The position numbers and the translations under genes are program-made. A model generated the notes under the pieces. It had not been told where the DNA came from. It did no database searches and worked only from the letters and a program-made list of their open reading frames with translations. A DNA stretch of 64,000 nucleotides, taken from NCBI GenBank assembly GCA_965231815.1, contig OZ246890.1, positions 2,833,388 through 2,897,387 on the forward strand, written 5' to 3'. How positions within the stretch are numbered: the stretch's first letter is position 1; each line of letters starts with the position of its first letter. Positions 4,914 to 52,961 of this stretch are shown here, piece by piece. The stretch is from Acidimicrobiia bacterium (GTDB taxonomy: Bacteria; Actinomycetota; Acidimicrobiia; Spongiisociales; Spongiisociaceae).

Positions 4914-5545
4914 CGGTGACGAGTCCAGGACAATCGGGTAGCGGGAGCGGCAACTCTTTGCGCGCCTACGTATATGTGGACAAGATGCAGCCCACTTGGG
5001 CGGCCTACGTGGGAAGGAACGACAAAGAAAGTTCGGGACTGGAAGGGATGGCGCAGCTTTATGTGGAGGTTGCGCCCGCCACGCTGGTGTTCTCGCTCGC
5101 CAACGCCGCGCTGAAGAACACCGAGACGTCCTCATCCATGCTGGTTGCCGAGCGGAGATACGGGACGCTCGAACTACACTCGGCCAACCCCGACGCGGTC
5201 CGCCAGGCCGGAACCATCATCCTGGCGATGATCGGCAGTTCCTCGGCCCCCGGCATCGTGCCCTCGGCGGTGACTACCCGTATCGTCAACAACGTGACCG
5301 GCATCGAAGCCGGGCTGGTGAACCGGATGCGTGTCCGCAGCCGGCTCAGAGAAGGTGACGCCATGCTGGTCGTGGAGACGGAGCCCGCCGCCTACGTGGC
5401 ACTGGCCGCCAACGAAGTGGAGAAGCACACCTCGCTGCGCATGATCCTCGTGCGGCTCCACGGCGCCAGCGGTCGTCTGATCCTCGCCGGGAGCGAAGCC
5501 GAGGTGGAGATCGGGCGCCAGGTGGCTCTCGGGGCCCTCGGGTAG
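4907..5545 (+). CDS. divergent tandem-BMC-domain (BMC-T-like) shell protein
   Basis: 212 aa with two BMC-like halves. The second half (AAYVALAANEVEKHTSLRMILVRLHGASGRLILAGSEAEVEIGRQVALGAL) aligns to the AxDAxxKAAxVELxxxxxxGxG...GDVxAVxxAV pattern. The first half is more degenerate. The start overlaps the BMC-P stop. Confidence 0.5.
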   Translation: MLTVTSPGQSGSGSGNSLRAYVYVDKMQPTWAAYVGRNDKESSGLEGMAQLYVEVAPATLVFSLANAALKNTETSSSMLVAERRYGTLELHSANPDAVRQAGTIILAMIGSSSAPGIVPSAVTTRIVNNVTGIEAGLVNRMRVRSRLREGDAMLVVETEPAAYVALAANEVEKHTSLRMILVRLHGASGRLILAGSEAEVEIGRQVALGALG

Positions 5546-5554
5546 GGGGGAGTC

Positions 5555-6103
5555 GTGCGCCAGATACTGACCACCGAGGATATCCGGACCGCAATCCGCC
5601 GGGGCAAGACGGAGTTGGTTGTCGAGCCCCCGACCATCATCACCGCAGCCGCTCGGGACGAGGCCAACCTGGCCGGGCTCCGGATCATCGAAGGTCCCAA
5701 GGACCGCAACGCCGACATAGTCATCAAGGTGTCCGGCGAAGATATCCGGGCGACGCTACTACTCGACGAGGCGCCTGTCACCGCGTCGGCCATCCGTGAC
5801 CTCCTTCCCCTCTCCGGTACCGTCAACCATGCCCGCCTAGCCGGCGACGAACTGATGTTCCCGATCCGGACCTACCTGGGTCCGGAGAACCAATCCAAGG
5901 CTCAATCGGCGGGAAACATCGCCTATTGGCCTGACCGGATGATCATCGCCATGTTCTACGGGGACACCGGCGGTGTGGGTCTCACCAACGTATTCGCACG
6001 GGTGGTCGCCGACGACATGGAAGCCTTCCGCAAGGCGGGAGACTTCGTCTGGAAAAACCAGGGAGTGGAACTCCGCATCGAGCATGCCAGGCCGCCGGCG
6101 TAG
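5555..6103 (+). CDS. BMC-associated protein with EutQ-type N-terminal domain (EutQ-like)
   Basis: N-terminus MRQILTTEDIRTAIRRGKTELVVEPPTIITAAARDEANLAGLRIIEG is homologous to the ALDH N-terminus in the same operon and to the EutQ N-terminal region. The C-terminal ~110 aa are of uncertain fold (no His cupin motif). GTG start with GGGGGGAG RBS. Confidence 0.55.
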   Translation: MRQILTTEDIRTAIRRGKTELVVEPPTIITAAARDEANLAGLRIIEGPKDRNADIVIKVSGEDIRATLLLDEAPVTASAIRDLLPLSGTVNHARLAGDELMFPIRTYLGPENQSKAQSAGNIAYWPDRMIIAMFYGDTGGVGLTNVFARVVADDMEAFRKAGDFVWKNQGVELRIEHARPPA

Positions 6104-6307: not shown

Positions 6308-6385
6308 CTAGCCCCGATTATTCATGGATAGGGGTATGGAGGATGAGTGGAGTAGACCAGTTTCACACCCTGACCAGGCAATACG
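6308..6385 (+). mobile_element. truncated 5' copy of a CTAG-terminated MITE-like element (family R1)
   Basis: CTAGCCCCGATTATTCATGGATAGGGGTATGGAGGATGAGTGGAGTAGACCAG... is ~85% identical over ~75 nt to the 5' ends of the full copies at 30719 and 45330 (reverse). No 3' inverted repeat is present. Confidence 0.45.
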
Positions 6386-8761: not shown

Positions 8762-10120
8762 TTATAGCGGCTTCATGATCCATGAGACTAGGTCCGGCCG
8801 AGCCTGGAGCTTCTGGAACCATTCCTTCTCAACCTCGAACACCCGCCAATCGGAATCGGCCGGGACGGTTTCCGCTTCGACCGCGTTCCTGTGCGAGTGG
8901 GCGATCGACAGGTCCATGTTGGTGGGAGAACCATCGGCGAAGTAATGATCCCAGGCGTCCTGGAACCGTACGTAGTCCTCGATGTTGAACAACTCCGCGA
9001 TCAGATCCTCGTCGCTCACCAGTACGCCGCCCGCTCGGCGCACCGCTTCGTGCATTGGCGGGAGCACTTCGTCGGTACGGTTGTGCAGGTAGCGGGTGGT
9101 CCGGTACCAGATGGCCAGCAGACGCAACGCTGTCTCCTCGTTCGCGGCCAACCAGTCCTCGGTGGAAGCGAAAGTGCTGTACCAGAGTCCGGTCGCTCCG
9201 AATGCCTGGAACGGGGCGGCCGACACGAACTTGTCTCTCAGGTCAGGAGCGGTCAGCATCCGGTGCATCTGGATGCTGTCGCCCATGTGGTAGTCACCCT
9301 CCCCGGCGATGAACGAGGTGGAGGCAACGTTGATGTCCGCGAAGCCGATGATCTCAACGTCGTCGAGGGTGAGCCCGCCCTGTTCCAGCAGAGCCTTGAG
9401 GGTCGGAACACTGCCTGGGTCCCAGATTGTGAAGCTCCGTCCGGCGAGGGACGCGGAAAACTCCCGGTTGGCCTCGTCCAGATCACCGCCTGCGTCAACG
9501 AAGAAGTCGAGCCACGGCTTGTGTACCGGCCCGCCGACTTCGGGATCCGCGCGGCCTATCACCTGGAAACCCCTCCATTGGTATGACGTAATCCAGTTCC
9601 GGAACTCTGGAATGCTCTCGTACACACCGAACGCGCAAGCCGGGCAGGAGGCGATCACGTCAAACTCGCCTCGCTTCAGAGCAGCCGTGGGGAAGAAACC
9701 CTGGCTCGAGATGTCAAGTTCGATGTTCAACTCATCGGCTATGCCAAGCTGCTTGGAGGCGGCCCACAGGTTGAATGGATAGAACGGCCCGCCGTTGATC
9801 CGCACCGTGACGAGTGGCGCGTCCGGGATCATCGGCGCCATCTCATCCTCTTCCTCCGGCTCCACGAGCACCTCGCGTACGATCTCTCGGATCACCGTTG
9901 TCGGAGGCGCGGTCGTGGTGGGTCCGGCTGTGGTGGTAGGGGCCGCGGTCGTCGTCGGCGCCAGGGTCGTGGTCGGCGCGGCTGTGGTGGTAGGGGCCGC
10001 GGTCGTCGTCGGCGCCAGGGTCGTGGTCGGCGCTGGCTCGTCTGCCCCACAAGCGGTCGCTACTAGGGCCACCACCGCCATTATAGAAAATAATCTCCAC
10101 CGCTTGAGCGAGCTTCTCAC
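8762..10120 (-). CDS. ABC transporter substrate-binding lipoprotein (NMT1/SsuA/TauA-like) with Thr/Pro-rich linker
   Basis: Lipoprotein signal (VALVATACG), (TTTAAPTTT)n linker, then a type-2 periplasmic binding fold; adjacent to two SsuC-like permeases. Confidence 0.7.
   Translation of the reverse strand: MRSSLKRWRLFSIMAVVALVATACGADEPAPTTTLAPTTTAAPTTTAAPTTTLAPTTTAAPTTTAGPTTTAPPTTVIREIVREVLVEPEEEDEMAPMIPDAPLVTVRINGGPFYPFNLWAASKQLGIADELNIELDISSQGFFPTAALKRGEFDVIASCPACAFGVYESIPEFRNWITSYQWRGFQVIGRADPEVGGPVHKPWLDFFVDAGGDLDEANREFSASLAGRSFTIWDPGSVPTLKALLEQGGLTLDDVEIIGFADINVASTSFIAGEGDYHMGDSIQMHRMLTAPDLRDKFVSAAPFQAFGATGLWYSTFASTEDWLAANEETALRLLAIWYRTTRYLHNRTDEVLPPMHEAVRRAGGVLVSDEDLIAELFNIEDYVRFQDAWDHYFADGSPTNMDLSIAHSHRNAVEAETVPADSDWRVFEVEKEWFQKLQARPDLVSWIMKPL
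9928..10035. repeat. perfect 54-bp tandem duplication (x2) inside the SBP linker-coding region
   Basis: GGCTGTGGTGGTAGGGGCCGCGGTCGTCGTCGGCGCCAGGGTCGTGGTCGGCGC occurs twice head-to-tail, encoding repeated TTTAAPTTT linker units on the minus strand. Confidence 0.8.
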
Positions 10121-27872: not shown

Positions 27873-28083
27873 CGACCATCGGGCTGTGCCCGGCCTGTCG
27901 TGTCGGCGCACATGCCGAACGTCGGCGTCCCCGAAACCGGTCCGGGCCCTGGTTAAGCTTCGGAGCGAATCCGAAGGTTCATGACTGAACCGGCGAAGAG
28001 GCGTTCGTGGCCTCAACGGGAGCGAGCCTTTCCGTTAAGAGGATCAGGTTTAGGTACTTTGTTGGTCTGATAAGAGGTATGGA

Positions 28084-29697: not shown

Positions 29698-29786
29698 TCG
29701 AAGACCATGATCATCCGCCCTGGTTACAAGAAGACGGAGGACCGGGCCGCATGCCGGTAACCCGAGCGAGGTCGGCGGAGTCGAAG

Positions 29787-30722
29787 ATGAGCGTGAGGTA
29801 CGCAGTTCTCTTTCCAGGCCAGGGAAGCCAGCGGGTCGGGATGGGCGCCGATCTGTTCCGTTCGCGCCCCGATCTTCTGATCGAAGCCGCGGATCGAGTG
29901 CTGGGGTGGTCGCTCCGAGAAGTGTGCCTTGAAGGACCCGAGGACCGTCTGACCGCCACCGAACACGCTCAACCGGCTCTCTACGCCCTCTCTTATGCCC
30001 TATGGAAGGAACTGGCTGAACGGGCAGGGCGCCTTCCCGCTGCGGCTGCGGGGCATTCGCTCGGCGAGTACACGGCTCTGGCAGCTGCCGGTGCGGTGTC
30101 ATTCGAGGACGGATTGGAACTAGTGGCGGCCCGAGCCCGGGCGATGGCGGAGGCCGTTCAGGAGGAGCCATCCGGCATGGCCGCGGTGTTGGGGGCGACC
30201 GCAGAACATGTCGAGCGGATAGCGGCCGACCGCCGGTCGCGGGGCGGACGGTTATGGATTGCCAATCGAAACGCACCGGGACAGATCGTTCTCTCCGGGA
30301 GTTCGGAGGACATTGATTGGGTGGTTGCAAACGGACGCCGGCTGCGTCTCCGGCGGGTGGTGAAGCTCAACGTAGCCGGGGCGTTCCACTGCCCTTTGAT
30401 GGAGTCGGCCCTACCAGGCCTGCAAGACGCATTGGATTCGGTGCGGATAGGAGCTTCTGTCTTTCCTGTGTGGTCCAACGTGACCGCTAGTCCCCACATT
30501 GCGGGTGAGGAAAGCCGGATGCTTGCCCGCCAGCTGATCGCACCCGTTCGTTTCTCTGCCTCGCTACGGTCTATGGCCGCATCGGGAGTGGAAACGTTCG
30601 TTCATATCGGGCCGGGCGATGTCACGGCAGGGATGGCCAGGCGAACGGTCAAAGGATCGAGAACCCTGGCTGTCTCGTCCGTCGCGCAAGCGGAAAAGAC
30701 TGCCGGCGATCTCGTCGTCTAG
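29787..30722 (+). CDS. fabD: ACP S-malonyltransferase
   Basis: LFPGQGSQ...GHSLGEYTALAAAG active-site Ser motif. Start set at the internal ATG (MSVRYAVLFPGQGSQ). Confidence 0.85.
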   Translation: MSVRYAVLFPGQGSQRVGMGADLFRSRPDLLIEAADRVLGWSLREVCLEGPEDRLTATEHAQPALYALSYALWKELAERAGRLPAAAAGHSLGEYTALAAAGAVSFEDGLELVAARARAMAEAVQEEPSGMAAVLGATAEHVERIAADRRSRGGRLWIANRNAPGQIVLSGSSEDIDWVVANGRRLRLRRVVKLNVAGAFHCPLMESALPGLQDALDSVRIGASVFPVWSNVTASPHIAGEESRMLARQLIAPVRFSASLRSMAASGVETFVHIGPGDVTAGMARRTVKGSRTLAVSSVAQAEKTAGDLVV

Positions 30723-30935
30723 CCTCGATTATTCATGGATGGGGCTTTGGAGGATGAGTGGAGCAGATGCCGTAAAAGTGCCCTGAACAGGCAATATATC
30801 TGTCCGGGGCGTTTCCCGTCCCGGTCTGGTGTGGGGAGATTCATCTGCCGGGTGAACAGTGGGATTCTCCTGATTACCGGGGTTGAATCGGCGTTATGTG
30901 CCTCGATGTGTGGGAAACCCGAACGATCAGGCTAA
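30719..30935 (+). mobile_element. full-length CTAG-terminated MITE-like element (family R1) in the fabD-fabH intergenic region
   Basis: 5' CTAGCCTCGATTATTCATGG and a degenerate 3' inverted repeat (CCCGAACGATCAGGCTAA). ~70-85% nt identity to the 45121-45330 copy across ~215 bp. Confidence 0.5.
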
Positions 30936-31121
30936 AAGTGGTGGACTTCCATTGGGAGGGGTTCACCTCCCGGAATACAATAGGAAAGCTTCTTGATACA
31001 ACGAGGGCCGGCTTAACCTAGCCGGTAGGCTGCGAGCCGCCATTTGAAGAGACGGTTTCGGTCCGAACAGGACACAGTCATGAGTTGGGCTAGATTCCCG
31101 TGAAAGAAGGACTGGGACCAT

Positions 31122-32201
31122 ATGCTGCGGTACGCGGAAATTACCGGATGGGGCAAGGCGCTGCCTCCGACTGTGCTCTCCAACTCCGATCTTGAACAGA
31201 TAGTCGATACCAGCGACGATTGGATTACCAGCCGAAGCGGGATCAAGGAGCGGCGTATTTCTCATGTGCCGGCCTCCGATCTAGGCGCTCTGGCTGCTCG
31301 TCGGGCTGCGGCGGCGGCCGGGATCGGCGTTGGGGATATAGATCTGATCCTAAATGCGACCTGTACTCCCGAGTCCATCATTCCTGCTTCGGCCTCCTAC
31401 ATACAAGCGAAGCTCGGGGCGAGTCGTTCCGGCGCTGTGGATGTCAATGCCAACTGCTCGGGGTTTGTTTACGGGTACGTAATGGCCGATTCGATAGTTC
31501 GTTCCGGGGCAGCTCGAACGGTAGTGCTGGTAGGAGTGGAGCGTCTCAGTTGGTTGGTTGACTATACCGACCGAAGTACTTGCATACTGTTCGGTGACGG
31601 CGCGGGAGCAGTGGTGATCCAGGCGACGAGCGAACCTGCCGGAGTGCTCGCCTCGGAGCTAGGGGTTGACGGAACGATGGCCGACATACTGTGCGTCCCG
31701 AACGATGGAACTATCGAACCCGGCTCGGCGAGTCCTCGAACCCGGTTGGTCATGCAAGGTTCAGACGTGTTTCGTCGGGCGGTCACGGCGATGGCCGATG
31801 CGTCCGAAAGCGTGGTGAAGCAGGCCGGGTGGGAACTTGATGACATCGACCTCCTGGTACCACACCAGGCCAACCAGCGAATAATCGACGCTACGGCGAG
31901 ACGACTCAAGCTGGATCAATCGCGGGTGTTTCTCAACATCCATGCATACGGCAACACAAGCGCCGCGACCATCCCGATCGCTCTGACCGAAGCCATCGAA
32001 GCGAGAAGGGTGCCCTCCCGCGGGAACCTGGTGTTCGCGGCATTCGGGGGAGGGCTTACCTGGGCGGCTGCCGCGGTGCGGTTCGGAGAACGCGTCGAAC
32101 CTGTCGAAATGATCGAGGATGAGCTCCCCGGAACCGACCGTACCGTGTGGGAGTTGATCCAGCCGAACTTCGACTATTACGGTCGGCTGGATAGGCGATG
32201 A
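31122..32201 (+). CDS. fabH: beta-ketoacyl-ACP synthase III
   Basis: Catalytic Cys (ANCSGFVYG) and His/Asn region (LVPHQANQRI...GNTSAAT); 359 aa. Confidence 0.85.
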   Translation: MLRYAEITGWGKALPPTVLSNSDLEQIVDTSDDWITSRSGIKERRISHVPASDLGALAARRAAAAAGIGVGDIDLILNATCTPESIIPASASYIQAKLGASRSGAVDVNANCSGFVYGYVMADSIVRSGAARTVVLVGVERLSWLVDYTDRSTCILFGDGAGAVVIQATSEPAGVLASELGVDGTMADILCVPNDGTIEPGSASPRTRLVMQGSDVFRRAVTAMADASESVVKQAGWELDDIDLLVPHQANQRIIDATARRLKLDQSRVFLNIHAYGNTSAATIPIALTEAIEARRVPSRGNLVFAAFGGGLTWAAAAVRFGERVEPVEMIEDELPGTDRTVWELIQPNFDYYGRLDRR

Positions 32202-34499: not shown

Positions 34500-34831
34500 T
34501 CGGGCAAACCCCTCCCGGTGTCGTGAATCGTTGTTTCGCTTGTGTTTGGGAGACCGCGAAATCTTTGTGGCGGGCGCGACCCGACATCCGGGGAAATCTG
34601 TCACACCCGGTCTGCATACTGGTGGGTAACCGCAAGCACCGACGGTTGGGTCAGGTACCGACCGGACCGGGGTTGGGATCATCTTGCTTGTTTCTTCTGC
34701 CTTGCCTCTGTTTGGCCAGGCGAGGGGTTAGCGGGACGCGTTTCGACGCCGAGGAGGCGGCGGCCGGGGGTGGGTCCCACTTGAGAGTGGTCCCATCCGG
34801 GTAGTTCGGTTTTCGCGGTCTTAACCCGGGT

Positions 34832-34950
34832 CTGTGCCGGAAGGCTGAGAAACCCCGTACAAAGGGGTTCAGACACTAGCCTGCAACTCTCTGACCAGGC
34901 GGTTTGCCTACCACCTACCCCGTGAGATTCGTTTTTCAGGACCCTCCTAG
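34832..34950. repeat. ~118-nt structured repeat, copy A (family R2, MITE-like or small-RNA-like)
   Basis: ~85% identical to 37835-37952. Contains a conserved hairpin (AACCCCGTACAAAGGGGTT), a second conserved block (CAACTCTCTGACCAGGCGGTTT), and a closing stem ending ...CCTCCTAG. Confidence 0.5.
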
Positions 34951-35206
34951 CTGTCTTCGTCGGAGGCTGAAGCTGTCCTGCCTTCCGGGTTCCGGGCCGT
35001 GACTACGGTGATAATCAGTCCGGTTACCGAGACGAGCATGCACACCCCCGGCAGGACTACCGCTAATAGTGGGATCCGTCCGAGTAGCGCCCCGAGACCC
35101 AGGGCCATGATGCTTAGCATCAGGGATAAGGCGCCGCCCACCACCAACGTGACCAACCCGAGATCGGCCCAGGCTCGGTTCCCGCCAATCCTGCCGCTCA
35201 AGCCGC

Positions 35207-37834: not shown

Positions 37835-37952
37835 CTAGGAGGGTGCTGAGAAACCCCGTACAAAGGGGTTCAGCCACTGATCCGCAACTCTCTGACCAGG
37901 CGGTTTACCGACCATCGAACCCCGTAAGATTCGTTTTTTAGCACTCTCCTAG
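37835..37952. repeat. ~118-nt structured repeat, copy B (family R2) with 13-15-bp terminal inverted repeats CTAGGAG(G/A)GTGCT
   Basis: 5' CTAGGAGGGTGCTGAG ... 3' TTAGCACTCTCCTAG. Internal hairpins are identical to copy A. Confidence 0.5.
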
Positions 37953-38254
37953 TTGGGGTCTTCGCGAACTACCCCTGACCGGGGGGTAATGGTAGTGGTC
38001 CCACGGGCCTGTCTCCTCCTCGACCGGGTTCTGTCTCCTTTTCTCAGTCGCCGCGACAGCGGCCAATGCGCCCGTACCCCAGAGCCACCGGACCGGTTGG
38101 CTTGTCAAAGTCCAGGGTCCGTGTCTTCCCTGACAGGTGAACACACGGATGTTCGCAGATGTTATCCATCGTGCCAGGACGCTTAGTGTCGCCTGGCCCG
38201 GCGTGGGCGAACTCGCCCGCTTCTTCGGCGGCGGCCCGGGCCAGTCCCGGACGC

Positions 38255-39284: not shown

Positions 39285-42200
39285 TCAGCCGGCGGGGTGT
39301 GGGTCGTCTGGGGGCAGGGAGGGGGGCAACCCGTCGACGGTGCGGACGGTGCGGACGGACACGGTGATCAGCCTGCATAGGTGTTCGATCAGGTTGTAGG
39401 GCTGGTTTGCCCAGGTGTGCCACCGGTTCGGGTCGCGGGTGATCCCGCTCGTTTTGTCATGGGTAGCCCGTAGACGGTCGATGGCCCAGCCGAGCGGGGT
39501 TTTCCCGTTGATCACATACTCGTGCGCTTCCGGGGGGATGTTTTCGATTCGGCACCGGTCGTTGACCACGAGCACGCTCAGGTCGTTGGTGAGTTTCTTG
39601 TCTTCGCCGCGGGTTCTGGCCCACCGTATCGGCTTGTGGATACGGTACACGTCGGGGCTGTCACGGTCCGGGTCGGCCGCCTGCCCGTCTACCAGCACTC
39701 GCACATGCGGATACGGTTCGCAGATTTCGTAGCCGACGTGTAGGTCGATCAGCTCCCGGCCCGCCTGGGCGAACGGCCAGAAGTCGTCGGTGTAGGGGAT
39801 ACGGGGTAGACCTTTGCGTAGATCGTTCGCGTATCTGGTTCGCCAGTCGGGGGCGTGCATCACTCCGTATATGTATGCCCAGATGTGGTCTTTGGTGATG
39901 GCAGGGTCCTGGTAGCGGCTGCGGAACTGGTTGAGGCACCAGTCGGTGATGTTGTCCACCCGGCCTTGGTCGTCGGGCCGGTCGCCGGTGGGGTCTAGGT
40001 CCCCCAAGTCCAGCATCGGAGTAGTGCCGGCGTTCATCGGCTGGTCTCCTTCGGATACGTGTACCGGGGGAACGCTTGTCCGTTGCCCATGAATTGGATG
40101 TCCGGAGGGATGTCGCTTATCAACGTCGAGAAGGGGCCTTTCCAGCCTGGTCCGGTCATGCTGATCACCTGATTCATCCGGTCGGGTGGGTGTATCGGGG
40201 GAACGCTTGTCCGCCTGACAGCAGATGCAGGTCCGGGGGACAGTCGCTGACGAGTGTTGAGAACCCGACCGATGCTCCCGGCCCGGTGATGTAGATGACC
40301 TGGTCGGTCGGTCGGTCGGTCGGTCGGTCGGTCGGTCGGTCGGTCGGTCGGTCGGTCGGATTATGATAGGAGGTTCTTGGCATCACCTGACCTTTGGACA
40401 CCAGCTCCAGGTCCGGTGCTGTGTCCGTCACCACCGTCGAGAACTCACGGGTCGATCCCCTCCCCGCTACGACTATCGCCTGGTTAGCGCCGTCGGGACG
40501 GTGAGGGAACATGAGCGGGACACGGTAGACCCGAGTGATGAACAGCGGGTCGTAGTAGAGCCACATCTTGGTGAACGGTCGGTAGTGGACTTCCCGAATG
40601 TTCCGTTCGTCGTAGGTGGCGGGCAGGCCGCGTCGTAGCGGTCGTCGCAGGTCACCCGTCCATTTGATGACATGTGGTCTGACGTTTCGGGTGGCTTGTT
40701 CGACTGTCGCCTCCCCGGTGCTCACACGGTGTCGTTGGTGTTCGTATTCGTCGACCATTGCTTCGGCCCGTTCTTCCAGACCGTCCTTGTCGTAGTCGTA
40801 CATATATGGGTCGCGACCGGTCGCGAGGCCGAGCGAGTAGATGTGGAACACGGTCGGGGAGTCAGCGCCCGATCCGGCCGACCCGCGCAGGGCTGCCTGT
40901 TTGGTGGTCTTGTCCCCGAGTGGCATTAGGTGTTGCCAGGTGGGGTCGGATTGGTTGATCCAGTCGTGGTTGCTGTCGGGTTTGATCCGTTGCCAGCCTT
41001 CCCCGTCGCCGCTCGTCGGCGCATGCCCCATGTCTTGGAGGGCCTGTTTTTCTGCTCTGCGGTCAGGTAGTCGCCAACATCGTGGTACCAGATGCGGGAT
41101 TGGCCGTCGGGATGTGGCTGCTGGGGGTGTTTGATCAGTACGGATACGAGTATGCCCACCCTCGTGCTGCTGCCGAAGACGTTGCCCTTTTCCCGCCTCC
41201 TGGCTTCTCCGGAGAGGCGGGCGTCGCCGCGTAGGTTGAGTAGGTACAGGCTGTGGTATTCGTCGGCTAGGCAGGCGCGCATGCCTGATTCGGCGTTGCC
41301 GTCGAGGTAGCCGTTGGGTGTGACGAAAGCGACGATGCCTTGGTCGCCGATGCGGTCGGTCGCCCACCTGATCGCCAGCTTGTACAGGTCCATCAGTTGC
41401 CTGCGGTTCTGGGTCTTGCTTTTCGCTGCGTAGGTGTCGCGGATGCGTTCCCGCAGTTGTGGGTAGACGATGTTGGGGTTGTCCTCAGCAGCGGATCTCT
41501 GTCCTGCGGACCAGGGCGGGTTCCCGACTATGATGTCGATGCGTTGGCCGGCTTGTTGTTCGGCCCGTCGGCTGTTGCCTGACAGGGTGTCGAACTGTTG
41601 CTGGTCGGGTTGGCTGTAGAACGTATCGCAGAGGACGATGCCTGCGAATGGCTTGTAGTCGCTATGTGGTAGTCGTTGGCGCCGTCCTTCTTCGATTTTG
41701 ACGGCGGCGATCTAGTAGGCCAACAGCAGCATTTCGTTGGCGTATATCTCGGCTGTGTATTTGCGGTCCAGGTCTTCGCCTGTGATAAGCGGCCGGCCGT
41801 TGCTGTCGTTGATGGTGAGTAGCCGGTTGATGAAGGTGCCGGTTCCGGTGAACGGGTCCAACACATGAACGTCGGGGTCTGATAGGGCCTTGCCGAAGTG
41901 GTGCTGGGAGAGCCGGTCGGCTGATCGGAGAACATAGTCCACCACCTTGATGGGGGTGTAGGCGACGCCGAGCCGGTCGGTTTCCCGTTTCATGCCTTTC
42001 GCGAAGAACGATTCGTACAGTTCGAGCAGGATTTTGAGGCGGCCTTCGGGGTCGGTGACCTGGCGGACCCGTTCGGTCACGCTGTCGTATAGGCGGTCGA
42101 GGCGGGCGGTGTCGGCTCGGATGTGGTCCCGGTCCAGCGTGTCCACCATCTGGTTCAACGCAGCAACAACCGGGTTGAGGGAAGCGAACGCGGCGGAGCC

Positions 42201-44588
42201 GAACAGGGCGTTGAACACGGGCAGCGTGACTATGTGGCAGGCCAACATGTCGACGAGGTCGGCTTCTTGTAGGTGTTCGTTGATCGTCTGACGCATCTCT
42301 GTGAGGAACCGTCCGAACGCTTCCGCAGTGTGCGGACGGGATCTGATGAGTCGGCTGATGCGGGCTGCGACGGTTCGGGTGACTTCTCCTACGTCGTCCC
42401 CCCAAGTCGCCCAATACGTGCGGTCCCCGCAGATTTCGACCAGCGCCGACGCGATTTCGGAGTTCATGGGGAGGGTCATCTGCGCAACGGTGGCAGGGTC
42501 CAACTCCCCACCGTTATCCGTGCCGTCGTCGTCGCCGTCGTCGCCGTCGTCGGTGCCGCCTATGACGTTTATGGGTGGTTTGCCGCCTTTGTCGGCGGTG
42601 TTGACCCACGCGTTCATCCGTTCGTCGTGGGATCGTAACGCCCGGATCACGTCCCAGACTGGCTTGAACCTTGGGCTGCGCAGAACGGCGTCGTCGATAC
42701 GGGTTTTCCCTTCGGGCAGGATGACGGGCAGGATGATGTAACCGCGTTCTTTCCCCGCGGCGGTTCGCATGACCCGTCCGACGGCCTGGACGATGTCGAC
42801 GATCGATCTGCGGGGGGCTAGGAACAGCACCGCGTCGAGGGCGGGCACGTCGACGCCTTCGGACAGGCAGCGGGCATTGGACACGACCCGGCACCGGCCG
42901 TCGGGGATGTCGGATTGAAGGTCGGCGATGGCGGTGGCCCGTTCCGACGCCCGTGTGGTTCCGTCCACATGGGTCACGTCCAACCCCAGCCGGCCGTTGT
43001 CGGCGCCGGAGGGTCGCTGTTCCGTGTATCCGTCGATGACGGGTTCCCACAGGCGGGAGAGCTGCCGCGACGCTTTGATGGTGTTCTGGAACGCTATAGC
43101 CCGTTTCACGGCACGGCCGGGGTTCGGGTTGGTCTGGCCGGTGCGCCGACCGTGGCCGGGTCCGCGGGAGAGCGGGTCGGCCATCGCGTCCCAGCAGCCC
43201 AGCATGGCCACCACATCGTCCGCTCGGATTTCTTCTCCGTGGTCCAGCTGGAGGGTGTTGACAACGTTGTCGGCCAGGTCGCCGTAAAGGCCCCGGTCGA
43301 CTGCGACTATCGCTACCTGATAGTCCGACAGCCATCCCCCATCGACTGCGGCCTTGAATGACATCTCATAGAACACGTCCCCGAACACGTTCGGGTCGTC
43401 CATCGAGAACACTGCGATGTCCTTCGAGCGGGCATTCCGTCTGGCCTGTGGGGTGTACAGGCGGGGCGTGGCGGTCATGTACAGACGGCGGTGTGCCCGT
43501 ATCTTCTGGTTGTCATGCACGAGGGTGAACGGGCTGACACCTTTCGTGGCGGTTTCGACTCCGGTGGTGCGGTGCGCTTCGTCACATACGACCAGATCGA
43601 ACACCGCTCCGGACTGCTGCTGCGCCGTGGCGACCCGGTCGAGTGACTGATATGTGGAGAACACCACCGTGGTCGCCCCGCCGCGGGTGGGGTTAGTGAG
43701 GGCTTGGGCTATATCTTCGGGGTCGGTAGTGACCGGAATCGACAGCTCAGTCAAATCCGACGACTCCGCGCCGCCCCGTTTCCCCGCGGTCCGATCCGAG
43801 CAGACACCCACATATGTTTGGACGGTGCGCCGCTGCGCCGCCCATTCCCGCATCGTCTGCCCCAGCAGCGAAATGGACGGGACCACATACAACACCGTCC
43901 CATCTGCGGGGACGGTCTGTTCGGCGATCCAAAGCGTCACCACGGATTTGCCTGTCCCACAAGGAAGGATCATCTGTCCCCTGCCGGCGCCAGCGTCGAA
44001 ACCGGCCACCACCGCGTCTATGGCGTCCTGCTGGTAGGGGTGCGGTTCGTACAGCACCCCCGGGATCGGGGCACGGTCGGGATCAGCAGCAAGTTCGGTC
44101 CAGGGAACCGGCCACTGCGCCAGATCCCCGTGATACAGCACACGGCATCCCGCCCCCTTCAGCTTCTTCGCCCCGGCCCGGGTAACCGGCGGAGAAGCCC
44201 GCGACGTCGAAATGAACATGCGATGCTGGAACCGGGCTGTGTTCGCTTTCGCCAAATACGAGTCCACATCCGCTTCCGGTGCGCGGGCGTCCCGATAGCA
44301 TTTCGTCTGGATCGCCCACCGGTCCCCGTCAGTGTCTGTCGCTATCAGGTCGATGCCCGAATCGGGACCGTCCCGTCCTTCCCACTCCCCCCAGGGAACC
44401 ACCTGGGTGAACCGGCCGCGGAACTCGCCCGGATGCTCTAGCAGCACCCGACACATCAACCGCTCGAACCTTCCGCCCACCCCACGCTGCGACGACGCCG
44501 ACCGCCGTATCGTCTCCAACGCCGCGTCCAGACCCGACAACGGTGGGACCAGCCGTTTCGACAGCCGCACCGCACCCATGTCACTCAT
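39285..44588 (-). pseudogene. disrupted Type ISP-like restriction-modification gene (Mrr-like nuclease - SF2 helicase/translocase - gamma-class N6A methyltransferase - C-terminal TRD)
   Basis: Nuclease motif (GIDLIA...WAIQTKCY) and helicase motifs (GTGKS; VVCDEAHRTTG). MTase motif I (VLDPFTGTGTF) lies before an in-frame TAG at 41709-41711, and motif IV (IIVGNPPWSAG) lies after it. There is a frameshift at a T5/A5 run near 41046-41050. A (GGTC)14 tract lies at 40302-40357. Three degenerate ~114-nt coding repeats follow (FSTxVxDxxPDLxLxSxGQxxPRY), with 1-nt frameshifts near 40180 and 40050. The C-terminal fragment (YIYGVMHAPDWRTRYANDLRKGLPRIPY) is typical of Type IIG/ISP enzymes. Confidence 0.7.
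40302..40357. repeat. (GGTC)14 tetranucleotide simple-sequence repeat inside the R-M coding region
   Basis: 14 uninterrupted GGTC units, read as (PTDR)n on the minus strand. Unit gain or loss changes the downstream reading frame. Confidence 0.85.
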
Positions 44589-44649
44589 CGTCGGTCGCTC
44601 CCCTCTGTTCGGCTAGCTTGGTCGGGTTGTTACCCACAGCGATCTGTAT

Positions 44650-45063
44650 CTGCCCCTGCACACCAGCGACGCCCGGCGATATCAACAGTTACCATCCCCA
44701 GCCAGGACCAGGTACCGTACTCGGCGCCCGGACGCTCGCAGAGCATTCGAGGGACGACCCCGAACGCTACACCAGCGCCAAGTCTCGCAGAAACTACGCC
44801 GGAACGTCGCCCATCACAGTCGCATCAGGCCGCAAACACGCCGTGGTCGCCCGCCACGTCCGCAACCGGAGACTCCACAACGCCCTCGACCAATAGGCGT
44901 TCTGTTCCCTAAACAACAGCCCAGACACCCGAACCTTCCTACGACCAAAACGAGCAGCCGACAACCTCCACCACCAAACACTACGAGCCCTCGCCAACCG
45001 ACTCGTAGGAACCCTCCACGGCTGCCTCAAACACCAAACCCCCTACAACGAACACACCGCCTA
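44650..45063 (+). pseudogene. IS110-family transposase C-terminal remnant with internal stop
   Basis: ...PGPGTVLGARTLAEHSRDDPERYTSAKSRRNYAGTSPITVASGRKHAVVARHVRNRRLHNALDQ*AFCSLNNSPDTRTFLRPKRAADNLHHQTLRALANRLVGTLHGCLK matches the conserved IS110 C-terminal region. The N-terminal DEDD half is absent. Confidence 0.5.
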
Positions 45064-45120: not shown

Positions 45121-45330
45121 CTAGCCCTGATTATTCAGGCTTCCCACACACGGGGGCATGTAACGCCAGTTCAACCCGAGTATTGGGGGAAACCCGCCGT
45201 TCACCCTGCAGGTGAATATCTATACCGGGCCGGGATGGGAAACGTCGATAGCTGTATTCCCTGGTCAGGGTACGAGTATGGTCTACTCCGCTCATCCTCC
45301 AAACCCCCGTCCATGAATAATCGGGGCTAG
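45121..45330 (-). mobile_element. full-length CTAG-terminated MITE-like element (family R1) with ~19-bp terminal inverted repeats
   Basis: Read on the minus strand, it runs from CTAGCCCCGATTATTCATGG through ~170 nt to CCTGAATAATCAGGGCTAG. The terminal inverted repeats are 17/19 identical. Confidence 0.5.
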
Positions 45331-45346
45331 AGGCGACTTACGTCTA

Positions 45347-45700
45347 CGACCCGGCAAACTTCACAACTGCTTACGGTACGCACGTAGCGGTGGTGGATGT
45401 GGATGTTGACACCGGCAAGATCGACCGGGTCAAGTACGTGGTGGTGGACAATTGCGGCACCATAATCAATCCGTTGCTGGTGGAGGGCCAGATACACGGA
45501 GCACTCGCGCAGGGCCTCGGATGTGCCGCTCGAGGAGTTCGTCTACGACGACGAAACCGGGCAGCTTCTCTCCTCGGCTCTGATGGATTACTTGCTGCCG
45601 TCTTTCACGGACCTGCCCGACTTCGAGACACATCACCTGGAAACCCCGTCACTCCACACCGAAGGCGGGTTCAAAGGTATGGGTTAAGCAGGGTGTTTAC
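45347..45700 (+). pseudogene. frameshifted C-terminal fragment of a molybdopterin dehydrogenase large subunit (CoxL/XdhA family)
   Basis: VDVDTGKIDRVKYVVVDNCGTIINPLLVEGQIHGALAQGLG, then in another frame EEFVYDDETGQLLSSALMDYLLPSFTDLPDFETHHLETPSLHTEGGFKGMG. Only ~110 codons remain, directly abutting the MITE. Confidence 0.45.
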
Positions 45701-46214
45701 CGTCTCTAGCGGCGCTGACCAACGCGGTTAGCGCCGACCTCTCCCACCTCGGTATCGAAGCGAACTAGACGCCGGTGACTCCTAGCCGGTTGCGGGCGGA
45801 TGAGGTCAAGGGCGCTCTAAGATGGCGGCCAAGCCTTGACCACCCTCGATGGTGGTAGAACCCGGCTCGTAGGAGTCGATCTTGCTGAGCGAGCCTCCGT
45901 ACGTTCTTATGGCAGTCCGAGCCGCCCCGACCACTGCGGCAGGATCCACATCAAGCATTCCGTTCCTTTGTGCGCTCATTTTTCTTTTTCGTTACCGGAC
46001 CCAGGATATTCGGTGGACTTGCACCGCATCGTGTAACCGGCCCTCCCTTGCGACGTTTGATTCATGTGACACGAAAGGCGGAAGGCGGCGGCGCACAGGC
46101 CCGGGTTGTCGTGTGCTGTCCGTTGGCCCTGATGGCCACAACGGTCCTTCCGCTGTCTCCGTTTCATCATGGTCGTTGAGTACAGCCGCCGGGTTGTGTA
46201 ATCTCAAATGCCAC

Positions 46215-50572: not shown

Positions 50573-50908
50573 CCACCGCTCTCCACCAAGCCGTGTCCGG
50601 CCACGTTGGACATGCGCCCTGATGCCGGCAGGGCGGCCACTTCGGCGATATCCCCCGGTTTCGCAGCCCTGCCAACCGGAATGCGAGACTCGATTGCGGT
50701 CCGGAGGTCAGATTGGTCCGACAGCCACTTGGTCATCGGGGTCCACCATACCCGGACCAACCCGGCGAGCGCCCACACGCGCAATCGCGACAAATCGAGG
50801 CGCCGAGTCGATTCACGATGGCAGCATCCGTGTATCCTCCTTGCGGGTGCCGACGAAATCGGCTTGTTGACTGGTCAGTGTGGAGCCGGGTTTTGGCCGG
50901 GGGGGGGG

Positions 50909-51838
50909 TTATGACGCGGTAGCGGTGGTGGTTGTTGTGGTGTAGGGGGTGAGGATTGTGTCGGCGGCTTCGATCATCGGAGCGCACACCGGGTGATTGG
51001 GGTCGCCGAACTCCATAATGTAGAACTTGGTTCTCCACGCGTACCAGCGGACGTTTATGGCTGCTTCACCTATTTCACGGATGTCCTGAACAGATGAAAC
51101 TCCCAGATTCGCCAACGCTTGGAGGTCGGCGCTGTGTACCCTATCGTAGTAGTCATAGGACAGCAAGTCCGGGTTTACTTGGAGCAGGCCCGGCTTGAGT
51201 TTGGTGATCGTGGCGACCATCTTGTCGAAACCGGAGCGACCCGGTTCAACTTCGAAGGTCGGATCACGCAGAGCCGCATCTATCAGGAAGGCCTCTTCGG
51301 AATTGTAGAGGCCTTCGTCTCGACTATCGTAATCCCAAGAAGGATCATCATAAACCATCTCAATTCGGAAAGTCTTGGCGCATTCGGTGGCGGGTAAGCC
51401 CTCCCAGGTGCTGGGTAGGCGGTGGTCCCAGGTGGGGTGGTGAACCCGGCGAGGAACCGATCTGTCCGAAGTAGTGGTCGTGACGGACAGTTGTGGGGCA
51501 GTGGTGATAGTTGTAGTCGTCTGGTCGTTTTGTGCAGGCGAATCGACTTCGGGTTCCGGTTGGGATAGTGGAGTTGTGTGATCGGTCACCGAGATGCCTC
51601 CCGTCCCGCCGTCGCTAGCCACGTCGTAGCCGCCTGAGGGGTCGAGCCATCCCGCTACGGTGGTGTCCGTCACCGCGAAACCGTCCTCACCGGTCGTCGC
51701 GGTTGTCTGCTCAGGAACCGTTGTCGTGGTGTTAGTGCCGTCGCCCTCGGTACCCATTGCGGAGACCACCGACAGCACGACCAACCCGCCGACCAGTACA
51801 CCGGCGACCGCGACAGCCCAGACACCGAAGCTGTTCAC
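50909..51838 (-). CDS. secreted/anchored Thr-rich protein, tandem paralog 1 (unknown C-terminal domain)
   Basis: Signal-anchor (WAVAVAGVLVGGLVVLSVVSA), a T/D-rich region, and a conserved C-terminal domain. ~75-80% nt identity to the adjacent gene, including ~60 nt of 3' flank. Confidence 0.6.
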   Translation of the reverse strand: MNSFGVWAVAVAGVLVGGLVVLSVVSAMGTEGDGTNTTTTVPEQTTATTGEDGFAVTDTTVAGWLDPSGGYDVASDGGTGGISVTDHTTPLSQPEPEVDSPAQNDQTTTTITTAPQLSVTTTTSDRSVPRRVHHPTWDHRLPSTWEGLPATECAKTFRIEMVYDDPSWDYDSRDEGLYNSEEAFLIDAALRDPTFEVEPGRSGFDKMVATITKLKPGLLQVNPDLLSYDYYDRVHSADLQALANLGVSSVQDIREIGEAAINVRWYAWRTKFYIMEFGDPNHPVCAPMIEAADTILTPYTTTTTTATAS

Positions 51839-51931
51839 CGTGTTTGCACCTCTCGCCCTCCTCGCCGGTTCCGATCATATCGGCTTGTTGACTGACTCGG
51901 TGTGGAGCCTGGTTTTGGCCGGGGGGTGGTT

Positions 51932-52852
51932 TTATGACGTGTAGGGGGTGAGGATTGTGTTGGCGGCTTCGATCATCGGAGCGCATGACGGGTGATTGGG
52001 GTCGCCCCATTTGTTGATTAGGCGATTCACCCTCCATGTGTACCAGCGGACATTGGCGGCGGCTTCGCCCATGTTACGGATGTCCTGTACAGACGAAACC
52101 CCAAGGTTCGTCAACGCTTGGTGGTGAATGTCGTATGTCTCGTTGTAGTAGTCGTAGGACAGCAAGTCCGGGTTTACATCTAGTAGGTACGGGTTTAGTT
52201 TGGTGATCGTGGCGACCATCTTGTCGAATCCGGAGCGGCCGGGTTCAACTTCGAAGGTCGGGTCACGCAGGGCCGCGTCTATTAGAAAGCTTTCGGCGGT
52301 TCCGTAGAGGCCTTCCATCCGAAGGAAATCATCCCAGGCATGCCATGCACGACGTATCTTAACTCGGAAGGTATTAGCGCATTCGGTGGCGCGCAACCCA
52401 CCCCAGGTGCTGGGTAGGCGGTGGTCCCAGGTGGGGTGGTGAACCCGCCGAGGAACCGACCTGTCCGAAGTAGTGGTCGTGACGGCCAGCGGCGGGACAG
52501 TGGTGATAGTTGTACTGGTCGGGTCGCTTTGTGCGGCAGGGTCGGTGGTTTGTTCCGATCCGGAAACCGGAACGGTGGTATCGGTTACCGAGATGCCTCC
52601 CGTCCCGGCGTCGCCAGCGGCAGTGTCGTAGTCGCCTGATGGGTCGAGCCATCCAGCCACCGTGGTGTCCGTCACCGCGAAACCGTCCTCACCGGTCGTC
52701 GCAGTTGTCTCATCGGGAAGGACCGTGGTGGTGTTGGCACTGTCGCCCTCGGTACCCATGGCGGAAACCACCGACAGCACAACCAGCCCGACGAGCAGTA
52801 CACCGGCAACCGCGGCAGCCCAGAAGCTGCGACGGTTCGCTCGTGGTTGCAT
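51932..52852 (-). CDS. secreted/anchored Thr-rich protein, tandem paralog 2
   Basis: Same architecture as 50909-51838. The duplicated unit is ~1.0 kb. Confidence 0.6.
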   Translation of the reverse strand: MQPRANRRSFWAAAVAGVLLVGLVVLSVVSAMGTEGDSANTTTVLPDETTATTGEDGFAVTDTTVAGWLDPSGDYDTAAGDAGTGGISVTDTTVPVSGSEQTTDPAAQSDPTSTTITTVPPLAVTTTTSDRSVPRRVHHPTWDHRLPSTWGGLRATECANTFRVKIRRAWHAWDDFLRMEGLYGTAESFLIDAALRDPTFEVEPGRSGFDKMVATITKLNPYLLDVNPDLLSYDYYNETYDIHHQALTNLGVSSVQDIRNMGEAAANVRWYTWRVNRLINKWGDPNHPSCAPMIEAANTILTPYTS

Positions 52853-52961
52853 CCATCCTCCTGATTTCCGTGTTCTGGTTGTTGCCGGTTGCGGTGTTAG
52901 TGTAGCGGTCCGGATTCGATACCGTCCGCGGGTGCGGTTGTCGGTTGAAGGAGGGCAAGGC

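What the first reader, a model, noticed from the sequence alone, without database searches (positions are those of the whole stretch)
30719..30935. Previously undescribed CTAG-terminated MITE-like family (R1), 3 copies in 64 kb, one sitting between fabD and fabH
Elements at 30719-30935 (+) and 45121-45330 (-) share ~215 bp at 70-85% identity. They have ~19-bp terminal inverted repeats (CTAGCCC[C/T]GATTATTCA[T]GG) and both ends are CTAG. A truncated 5' copy sits at 6308-6385 inside the BMC operon. CTAG termini recall IS630/Tc1-type insertion into CTAG with TA duplication. Each copy carries an internal GGAGG-ATG 'gene start', but the downstream reading frame is not conserved between copies. This argues for nucleotide-level conservation (MITE or small RNA), not a protein. 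The fabD-fabH intergenic copy and the in-operon copy could affect transcription by attenuation or by providing a promoter or RBS.
Basis: seen in the sequence. Interest (0 to 1): 0.6.

Follow-up and report, generated by a model that had tools for sequence, protein, structure and literature searches.

The report
New MITE family in Acidimicrobiia genomes
The repeat is real: it is a ~204-bp non-coding "hitch-hiker" transposon (MITE) present in about a hundred or more copies in a small group of uncultured Acidimicrobiia genomes. It has moved recently, but it is an ordinary kind of element and its transposase has not been found.

Summary
The window holds two full copies (30719-30935 +, 45121-45330 -) and one 5' fragment (6308-6384 +).

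- **Copy number.** It returned 98 full-length copies, on average 91% identical to a 204-bp consensus.
- **Anatomy.** Each copy has about 16-bp terminal inverted repeats and TA-centred YTAR flanks (CTAG, TTAG, TTAA).
- **Not coding, not RNA.** The 54-aa ORF is broken in about half of the copies. It has no real protein relatives among 1.84 billion representatives. There is no Rfam match, no covariation and no unusual folding.
- **Mobility.** Sister genomes about 96% identical to the window give four filled/empty site pairs. The fabD-fabH copy is absent from them. OY760694.1 carries a different copy in the same spacer, 5 nt upstream of the fabH ribosome-binding site.
- **Placement.** Insertions avoid open reading frames. 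About a third sit exactly on a TAG/TAA stop codon, which the flank duplication preserves. This is the case for fabD.
- **Partner.** The IS630 link is plausible but unproven. The IS630 elements of this lineage also use CTAG, but their ends are unrelated to the MITE ends. The flanks behave partly like a 4-bp duplication, with an unexplained left/right asymmetry.

Verdict: a new member of a known kind, of modest interest.

The parts
30719..30722 (+). Left flank CTAG of copy 1. TAG at 30720-30722 is the fabD stop codon.
   Evidence: Relatives lacking the element have GTT TAG at the same place.
30723..30931 (+). Copy 1 core (209 bp), the most divergent copy seen. The left inverted repeat CCTCGATTATTCATGG is intact. 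The right one (CCCGAACGATCAGG) is degenerate.
   Evidence: It forms a singleton cluster. It is absent from sister genomes with 96% identical flanks.
30932..30935 (+). Right flank CTAA of copy 1.
30936..30955 (+). 20 bp (AAGTGGTGGACTTCCATTGG) present only in the window, between the element and the conserved spacer. Origin unexplained.
   Evidence: the window has 236 extra bp at 30723-30958 against 2 bp in L080.
45121..45330 (-). Copy 2: 202-bp core at 45125-45326 with CTAG on both sides. The internal 54-codon ORF at 45131-45295 is intact.
   Evidence: It abuts a molybdopterin-enzyme gene fragment (45333-45731) and lies next to an IS110 fragment (44543-44893).
6308..6384 (+). Truncated copy 3: flank CTAG (6308-6311) plus the first ~73 nt of the core. 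Homology then stops.
27953..27956 (.). Empty site (single TTAA). Sister genome OY760694.1 has TTAA-core-TTAA here (L003:615-830).
31100..31106 (.). Position orthologous to the independent insertion in OY760694.1, 5 nt upstream of the fabH ribosome-binding site. It is empty in the window.
   Evidence: L090 1925-2131 filled; L089, L091 and the window empty.
30952..30981 (+). Promoter-like site TTGGGA-18-TACAAT upstream of fabH. The -10 hexamer lies in sequence conserved in relatives without the element.
   Evidence: alignment. This is a consensus match only and function is not shown.
29751..30722 (+). fabD (malonyl-CoA:ACP transacylase), upstream neighbour of copy 1.
   Evidence: PF00698.
31122..32201 (+). 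fabH (ketoacyl-ACP synthase III), downstream neighbour of copy 1.
   Evidence: PF08545, PF08541.

Best explanation
The repeat is a family of miniature inverted-repeat transposable elements (MITEs): non-autonomous DNA transposons of about 204 bp. Each has a 202-bp core, CCCCGATTATTCATGG...CCTGAATAATCAGGG. None encodes a transposase, so an enzyme made elsewhere must move them.

Shown:
- About 16-bp terminal inverted repeats, plus highly conserved subterminal regions (roughly the first 45 and last 50 bp). These are the expected transposase-binding parts.
- Insertion at TA inside YTAR tetranucleotides, with duplication of flank bases.
- About a hundred or more dispersed copies per ~4-Mb genome.
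- Insertion polymorphism between ~96% identical genomes, so the family was active recently.
- Strong avoidance of coding sequence.
- Frequent landing on TAG/TAA stop codons, where the duplication regenerates the stop. This is why fabD is intact.

Inferred:
- The mobilising enzyme is a DDE transposase. An IS630/Tc1-mariner-type enzyme is the leading candidate (about 45%). A 4-bp-YTAR type is the alternative: IS5-like about 30%, IS1380/piggyBac-like about 10%.
- The copy between fabD and fabH is most likely a tolerated passenger. It sits between the fabD stop and a putative fabH promoter. It is not likely to be a regulatory device.
For: - They hold 98 full-length copies, mean 91.4% identity to the consensus (range 80-96%), plus about 20 partial copies. 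A further copy (L090) lies in a bin the scan did not return, so the true number is higher.
- **Flanks.** TA is present on the left in 76/81 copies and on the right in 75/81. The flanking 4-mers are YTAR.
- **Duplication is made at insertion.** Copies with identical or nearly identical cores carry different matched flanks, for example L067 CTAG/CTAG versus L045 TTAA/TTAA at core distance 0.000. ATAT/ATAT and CTAT/CTAT also occur.
- **Filled/empty pairs.** Four pairs were found: the window fabD stop versus L080, L081, L089, L090 and L091; window 27953 TTAA versus L003; fabH upstream, filled in L090 versus L089, L091 and the window; L099 CTAA/CTAA versus L007. One insertion is shared by L099 and L007, which shows vertical inheritance.
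- **Not coding.** The ORF is intact in about half of the copies, +/-1 indels occur in 28/81, and substitutions by codon position are 382/361/474. phmmer against 1.84e9 representatives gave 24 hits. All are short MITE ORFs, apart from three longer spurious ORFs (two translated CRISPR arrays and one repetitive sequence). There are no Pfam or NCBIfam families.
- **Not a structured RNA.** No Rfam match. The RNAalifold covariation term is -0.53, with only the inverted-repeat stem predicted. Folding z-scores are -1.1 and -0.5.
- **Placement.** Only 6/73 restored sites lie in long open frames, against 46% of random positions. 30/84 copies sit on the stop codon of an ORF of at least 100 codons.
Against: - No autonomous element with matching inverted repeats was found. 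It was absent from 632 kb of OY760694.1, the window, one JGI metagenome scan, one viral scan and a plasmid BLAST.
- The duplication size is not cleanly defined. 29 copies have TTAG on the left and CTAG on the right. In the fabH-upstream pair the right-hand C is absent from the empty site.
- The fabD copy is only 76% identical to the other window copy, although its flanks are 96% identical to genomes that lack it. It must therefore descend from a divergent source copy, or have been lost from the sister genomes.
- All genomes compared are metagenome assemblies, so systematic consensus errors at the flanks cannot be excluded.
Confidence: 0.9

Rival explanations
1. The element is a MITE, but it is moved by a transposase that makes a 4-bp YTAR duplication rather than a TA duplication. 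Candidates are an IS5-family enzyme, or an IS1380/piggyBac-like enzyme (CCC...GGG ends, TTAA-type 4-bp duplication), not an IS630/Tc1-type enzyme.
For: - Matched 4-mers flank near-identical cores: TTAA/TTAA, ATAT/ATAT, CTAT/CTAT and CTAG/CTAG.
- In the non-palindromic pair, L099 has CTAA-core-CTAA where the empty site in L007 has a single CTCA.
- The core begins CCCC and ends GGG. piggyBac ends read GGG-TTAA-CCC in the substrate printed in PMC7351741.
- IS1380 transposases are described as distant prokaryotic relatives of piggyBac (PMC10140906).
- The IS630 ends of this lineage are unrelated to the MITE ends.
Against: - 29 copies have TTAG/CTAG, against only 3 with TTAG/TTAG.
- In the fabH-upstream pair the empty sites have T where the filled site has C on the right. 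This fits a TA duplication with fixed G...C termini.
- No IS5 or IS1380 transposase was looked for systematically, and none was seen.
Confidence: 0.35
2. The copies are genes for a small protein of about 54 aa, starting at the conserved GGAGG-ATG.
For: - The consensus has an RBS-ATG and a 54-codon ORF, and 27 of 81 copies keep exactly 54 codons.
- There is a slight excess of third-position substitutions (474 versus 382 and 361).
Against: - About half of the copies are frameshifted or stopped, and +/-1 indels are common.
- The fabD copy stops after 10 codons.
- Only 24 weak-to-moderate hits were found in 1.84e9 representative proteins, all from the same few genomes or spurious.
- No protein family matches.
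- The best-conserved parts are the termini, not the ORF.
Confidence: 0.02
3. The element is primarily a functional structured RNA (small RNA, attenuator or riboswitch-like leader) that happens to be repeated.
For: - Several copies lie in leaders or between co-oriented genes, for example fabD-fabH in two genomes.
- If transcribed, the inverted repeats would form a terminal stem.
Against: - There is no Rfam family at gathering or relaxed thresholds.
- The covariation term is -0.53, and only 2 of 23 predicted pairs show any compensatory change.
- Sub-alignments give no consensus helix.
- Folding energies are within about 1 sd of shuffles.
- Copies occur in both orientations and next to unrelated genes.
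Confidence: 0.04

Closest known systems
RUP (repeat unit of pneumococcus), proposed to be mobilised by IS630-Spn1
   Same: Both are small non-coding elements with terminal inverted repeats, about 100 intergenic copies, insertion at TA, and insertions next to or into IS elements (PMC2229807). Here one copy abuts an IS630 remnant (L027) and another abuts an IS110 fragment.
   Different: RUP is 107 bp with 9-bp inverted repeats that resemble those of a known IS630 member. Here the element is 204 bp with ~16-bp repeats. No IS with matching ends was found, and the IS630 group of the lineage has unrelated ends. There is no sequence homology, and the host phylum differs.
Correia / NEMIS elements of Neisseria
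   Same: Both have TA at the termini, ~24-bp inverted repeats and 100-150 bp length. Both have high copy numbers, are located in intergenic and leader regions, and were defined by filled/empty site comparisons. Neither has a known transposase (PMC2229807).
   Different: Correia elements are A+T-rich and carry IHF sites and promoter elements, and their transcripts are RNase III substrates. None of this was tested or seen here. The present family is G+C-rich, and its sequence bears no evident resemblance.
IS630-family insertion sequences of Acidimicrobiia (P0122/P0163 group, named 'IS630 family transposase' by NCBI)
   Same: They occur in the same lineage. They insert at TA within CTAG, and G...C bases adjoin the TA. 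Their stop codon is made of the flanking TA plus G. The MITE right end likewise reads ...CAG GGC TAG.
   Different: Their ends are GTGTCCTGAATCC, against GCCCYGATTATTCA for the MITE. Local alignment of 100-bp ends scores no better than shuffles. They are therefore not the source of this MITE.
piggyBac (eukaryotic) and IS1380 (bacterial) transposons
   Same: A 4-nt TA-centred palindromic target (TTAA in piggyBac) is duplicated on both sides. Element ends begin CCC and end GGG. piggyBac carries 4-nt donor-flank overhangs to the new site (PMC7351741), which could in principle yield flank bases not present in the target, as seen in 29 copies.
   Different: No such transposase was found. The target here is relaxed (CTAG, TTAG, TTAA and others). 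A symmetric carry-over model does not reproduce the observed left/right asymmetry. The IS1380 end and duplication features are recalled from memory, not tested.

Membership tests
MITE (non-autonomous DNA transposon with terminal inverted repeats) | Small size and no transposase gene | tested here: met
   The consensus is 204 bp. Its only ORF is 54 codons, decaying, and without family matches.
MITE (non-autonomous DNA transposon with terminal inverted repeats) | Terminal inverted repeats | tested here: met
   GCCCCGATTATTCATG and GCCCTGATTATTCAGG match at 14 of 16 positions. They are nearly invariant over 99 copies.
MITE (non-autonomous DNA transposon with terminal inverted repeats) | Many dispersed copies with unrelated flanks | tested here: met
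MITE (non-autonomous DNA transposon with terminal inverted repeats) | Target-site duplication, and filled versus empty sites | tested here: met
   TA flanks both sides in about 93% of copies. Four filled/empty pairs were found. The exact length of the duplication (2 to 4 bp) is not settled.
MITE (non-autonomous DNA transposon with terminal inverted repeats) | An autonomous partner with the same inverted repeats | tested here: inconclusive
   None was found in 632 kb of OY760694.1, the window, JGI metagenomes, IMG/VR or plasmids. About 85% of each sister genome could not be read.
IS630/Tc1-mariner-mobilised MITE | Insertion at TA with duplication of exactly TA | tested here: inconclusive
   For: TA is nearly invariant, the TTAG/CTAG class has 29 copies, and the fabH-upstream pair fits. 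Against: TTAA/TTAA, ATAT/ATAT, CTAT/CTAT and CTAA/CTAA occur around near-identical cores, and the L099/L007 pair disagrees.
IS630/Tc1-mariner-mobilised MITE | Inverted repeats similar to those of an IS630-family element | tested here: not met
   This holds for the only IS630 group retrieved from the lineage (L027 remnant, L083-L087): alignment scores are at shuffle level. Other IS630 groups were not testable.
IS5 / IS1380 / piggyBac-like (4-bp YTAR or TTAA duplication) | Perfect 4-bp duplication of the target | tested here: inconclusive
   About 30 of 81 copies have identical 4-mers on both sides. 29 differ at the outer left base.
IS5 / IS1380 / piggyBac-like (4-bp YTAR or TTAA duplication) | A matching transposase in the genome | not tested
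   No systematic transposase survey of the loci was made. There is no seed sequence from this lineage.
Any Rfam RNA family | Covariance-model match | tested here: not met
   No match covers any copy at gathering threshold. The relaxed scan around the fabD copy gave only E>2 noise.
Conserved small-protein family | Frame conserved across copies, with homologues elsewhere | tested here: not met

The most novel reading that the evidence does not exclude
The element is moved by a bacterial piggyBac/IS1380-like (or otherwise unusual) transposase. This enzyme would make a 4-nt TA-centred staggered cut and carry donor-flank nucleotides on the excised element to the new site. That would explain why the right flank is CTAG even where the empty site reads TTAG, and why the two ends behave differently. 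If so, this would be a natural bacterial record of flank carry-over and of asymmetric end processing.
Probability: 0.1. Interest if true: 0.6.

Novelty: new member of a known kind. Interest (0 to 1): 0.35.

Why it matters
- **Annotation.** The family adds about a hundred or more spurious small ORFs per genome. The protein collections already hold such ORFs on contigs of 4.14, 4.08, 4.02 and 0.39 Mb.
- **Markers.** The insertions are sensitive presence/absence markers for telling apart ~96% identical uncultured Acidimicrobiia strains. In about 10 kb around the fab genes, three insertions differ between strains and none is shared.
- **Genome biology.** A recently active MITE in a high-G+C genome repeatedly lands on stop codons and in the leader of an essential gene (fabH) without destroying either.
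- **Open point.** The left/right asymmetry of the flanks is the one feature that could teach something new about transposition chemistry.

Tried and rejected
1. **IS630 remnant in L027 as the parent.** Its 3' end (..AATCAGGACAC|TAG) looked similar to the MITE right end. Intact relatives (L083-L087) showed ends GTGTCCTGAATCC, with no significant similarity to either MITE end. Rejected.
2. **A covarying internal stem.** I saw one by eye (GGAGATTCACC...GGTGGGTTTCTCC versus AGGAGTCA...TGACTCCT). RNAalifold on the full and partial alignments found no consensus helix. Dropped.
3. **Terminal bases G..C and A..T as inherited subfamily markers (pure TA model).** Clustering showed the types scattered within young clusters. 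Rejected as the sole explanation.
4. **Cytosine deamination, symmetric flap carry-over and error-prone gap filling as causes of the TTAG/CTAG class.** Each predicts the mirror class CTAG/CTAA at equal frequency. Only about 3 such copies are seen against 29. None accepted.
5. **Wider searches.** The JGI metagenome scan (1 chance hit), the IMG/VR scan (6 chance hits) and the plasmid BLAST (none) gave neither copies nor a partner.
6. **Provenance of the window.** Exact look-ups of its FabD and FabH found nothing on record. The window is not OY760694.1 but a ~96% identical relative.
7. **The 'BMC operon' context of the 6308 copy.** Not verified. The adjacent ORFs gave no BMC domain: 4907-5542 had no Pfam hit, and 5555-6100 is DUF3830/cyclophilin-like.

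Full report
**1. Observation**

Copy 30719-30940 (+) aligns to 45330-45126 (-) at 76% over 213 bp (E 7e-37). The stretch at 6308-6383 aligns to the first 77-78 nt of both at 81-87%. Nothing else in the 64-kb window matches beyond chance.

The 45-kb copy has CTAG on both sides of a 202-bp core. The fabD copy has CTAG on the left, a degenerate right inverted repeat and CTAA on the right. It is followed by 20 bp that relatives do not have. fabD (29751-30722, PF00698) ends with the TAG of the left CTAG. fabH (PF08545/PF08541) starts at 31122.

**2. The family is large**

I scanned one genome per species for GATTATTCATGG-N10-GGAGGATG. Of the 79 stretches it returned, 77 came from a single chromosome: OY760694.1, an Acidimicrobiia MAG of 4,140,741 bp. 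The other two were chance matches.

These 77 stretches are 8-kb bins scattered along the whole chromosome. They hold 98 full-length copies, on average 91.4% identical to a 204-bp consensus (range 80-96%), and about 20 partial copies. A further copy lies in a bin that was not returned (L090), so the true number is higher. The window's density (two and a half copies in 64 kb) would also give between one and two hundred copies per genome.

**3. Anatomy**

- The core reads CCCCGATTATTCATGG...CCTGAATAATCAGGG. With the adjoining base on each side, the inverted repeat is 16 bp with two mismatches.
- Roughly the first 45 and last 50 positions are almost invariant. The middle varies.
- TA precedes the element in 76/81 copies and follows it in 75/81.
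- Including one more base on each side, the flanks are YTAR tetranucleotides.

**4. It is not a gene**

- The consensus has GGAGG-ATG and a 54-codon frame. The frame keeps about its full length in roughly half of 81 copies, and single-base indels occur in 28. Substitutions fall 382/361/474 on the three codon positions.
- Pfam and NCBIfam find nothing.
- I searched the intact window ORF with phmmer against 1.84 billion representative proteins. It found 24 proteins with E <= 0.001. Twenty-one are short ORFs read from other copies of the element. The three longer ones are spurious: two are translated CRISPR arrays and one is a repetitive ORF.
- The ten short ORFs whose sources were looked up lie on contigs of 4,140,741, 4,082,865, 4,016,103 and 386,161 bp. 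The family is therefore confined to a few sister genomes.

**5. It is not a recognisable structured RNA**

- No Rfam family matches any copy.
- On 99 aligned copies, RNAalifold predicts only the inverted-repeat stem and a few 3-5-bp helices, with a covariation term of -0.53 kcal/mol.
- Sub-alignments give no helix.
- The consensus and the fabD copy fold no better than shuffled sequences (z = -1.1 and -0.5).

**6. It is mobile, and was so recently**

The window is not OY760694.1 (genome A). It is about 96% identical in nucleotides to A and to a 4.02-Mb chromosome from sample ERZ25069711 (genome B). Four filled/empty pairs were found:

(a) The window copy after the fabD stop is absent from A, from B, from a short-read contig and from a more distant relative. 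All of these read GTT TAG G at that place. The fabD-fabH spacer is 166 bp in B and 399 bp in the window.

(b) A has its own copy in the same spacer, inserted 5 nt upstream of the fabH ribosome-binding site (L090 1925-2131). The window, B and the short-read contig are empty there.

(c) A has TTAA-core-TTAA (L003:615-830) where the window has a single TTAA at 27953-27956.

(d) A 386-kb contig of a further strain (L099) has CTAA-core-CTAA directly after a TGA stop codon, where A (L007) has a single CTCA. A second copy 1.5 kb away is shared by both at the orthologous TTAA site.

So some copies are inherited and many are strain-specific. In the ~10 kb around the fab genes, three insertions differ between strains and none is shared.

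**7. Where it lands**

After removing the element in silico, only 6 of 73 sites lie inside a frame that is open for at least 100 codons on both sides. The figure for random positions is 46%. In 30 of 84 copies, the TAG/TAA of the flank is the stop codon of an ORF of at least 100 codons. Among all YTAR sites the figure is about 11% per strand. Because the flank is duplicated, the stop codon is kept and the upstream protein is unchanged. FabD is 323 aa both in the window and in B.

**8. The fabD-fabH copy**

No terminator-like site is predicted in or near it. One promoter-like site (TTGGGA-18-TACAAT, 30952-30981) lies just downstream of the insertion. Its -10 hexamer sits in sequence conserved in A, B and the 73%-identical relative.

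My reading is inferred, not shown. fabH has its own promoter in the spacer. The window copy sits between the fabD stop and that promoter. The copy in A sits in the fabH leader. Both are tolerated. Nothing indicates a regulatory role.

**9. Which transposase?**

IS630-family elements exist in the lineage. L027 carries a 5'-truncated, frameshifted IS630 transposase whose stop codon lies in a CTAG directly abutting a partial MITE. L057 carries an internally deleted derivative. The closest intact relatives are 76-82% identical and carry DDE_3, and others in the same hit list are named 'IS630 family transposase' by NCBI. They are flanked by TA within CTAG. Their ends, however, are GTGTCCTGAATCC...GGACAC. 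Aligning 100 bp of either end to either MITE end scores no better than shuffles. This group is therefore not the partner. No element with the MITE's ends was found anywhere I could look.

**10. The flanks do not fit one simple rule**

- **Evidence for a 4-bp duplication.** Copies whose cores are identical or nearly so carry different but matched 4-mers: L067 CTAG/CTAG versus L045 TTAA/TTAA at distance 0.000, and ATAT/ATAT and CTAT/CTAT within one young cluster. Pair (d) shows CTAA duplicated from a single non-palindromic site.
- **Evidence for a TA duplication.** 29 copies have TTAG on the left and CTAG on the right, while TTAG/TTAG occurs 3 times. In pair (b) the empty sites have T where the filled site has the right-hand C. 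That fits a TA duplication with fixed G...C termini.
- **The asymmetry.** The mirror class CTAG/CTAA occurs only about 3 times. Whatever the mechanism, it treats the two ends differently.

I tested several symmetric explanations on paper: deamination, gap-filling errors, and carry-over of donor-flank overhangs as in piggyBac (PMC7351741). None reproduces the asymmetry. CCC...GGG ends with a TTAA-type 4-mer are the piggyBac signature. IS1380 transposases are its distant bacterial relatives (PMC10140906). I therefore keep a 4-bp-type enzyme as a serious rival.

One caveat applies: all the genomes are metagenome assemblies, and consensus errors at the flanks cannot be excluded with these tools.

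**11. Comparison and novelty**

In behaviour, the element is closest to RUP of pneumococcus and to the Correia elements of Neisseria. These are small, non-coding, TA-flanked elements with inverted repeats, about a hundred mostly intergenic copies, and definition by filled/empty sites. Only RUP has a proposed transposase, IS630-Spn1 (PMC2229807). The present family shares no sequence with them.

No paper in the searchable library mentions MITEs together with Acidimicrobi*. It is a new member of a known kind.

Its interest is modest. It is useful for annotation and strain typing, and it is a clear example of stop-codon-preserving insertion. The one open point, the asymmetric flanks and the missing transposase, could become more interesting.

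Noticed in passing
L090 1925-2131 (OY760694.1, 2,023,388-2,031,630 reversed): The sister genome carries an independent copy of the same MITE in the same fabD-fabH spacer, 5 nt upstream of the fabH ribosome-binding site. Its fabH leader would therefore contain the whole element.
   Followed up: yes
window 44543-44896 (+), Rfam hit 44698-44782 (-): This is a fragment of an IS110-family transposase (PF02371), about 91% identical in DNA to a full IS110 in OY760694.1 (L063, ORF 1381-2604). The window's only Rfam hit (Ms_AS-4, 61.5 bits) lies inside it on the opposite strand, so it is probably antisense to the transposase and not an independent sRNA gene.
   Followed up: partly
window 45333-45731 (+): A fragment of a molybdopterin-cofactor-binding (xanthine dehydrogenase family) gene (PF20256, profile positions 194-253 of 283) starts exactly at the MITE boundary and then frameshifts. 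The N-terminal part is not on the other side of the element, which suggests a deletion or rearrangement at the MITE.
   Followed up: partly
window 41712-44588 (-): A large Type ISP restriction-modification-like ORF (Mrr_cat_2, ResIII, Helicase_C and ISP coupler domains) lies next to the IS110/MITE junkyard.
   Followed up: no
window 34520-34945, with repeats 34844-34962 and 37845-37964: A ~427-bp segment directly after fabF is present only in the window and is absent from all four relatives. Its last ~100 nt belong to a ~120-nt repeat whose second copy lies 3 kb downstream (80-87% identity, with an AACCCC..GGGGTT hairpin). No Rfam match. It may be a second repeat family or a small insertion.
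   Followed up: partly
L027 3798-4830 (-) and L057 4283-4370 (-): L027 carries an IS630-family transposase pseudogene (5' truncated, frameshifts, 19-nt duplication), with a partial MITE inserted at its terminal CTAG. L057 carries an internally deleted IS630 derivative that keeps the left end TA|GT(A)GTGTCCTGATTCC, that is, a second, unrelated MITE in the making.
   Followed up: yes
L075 ~2212 and L041 ~1886; L055 7125-7497: MITE copies occur in tandem, sharing one flank 4-mer (..CAGGG TTAG CCCC..). One copy is nested inside another at an internal CTAA. The element therefore targets the TA sites created by its own flanks and interior.
   Followed up: partly
window 40294-40361: A perfect (GGTC)n microsatellite of about 15 units.
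   Followed up: no
window 50836-52913: Two adjacent ~1-kb segments are 80-94% identical (spacing 999-1022 bp), indicating a tandem gene duplication.
   Followed up: no
window 9896-10039: An 18-nt periodic G-rich repeat (6 or more units), probably a coding repeat.
   Followed up: no
P0258, P0261: The weak protein hits to the MITE ORF include translated CRISPR arrays (..ISIHAPLCGER....FNPRSPMRGAT..). This is a reminder that the protein collections hold many spurious ORFs from repeats.
   Followed up: yes
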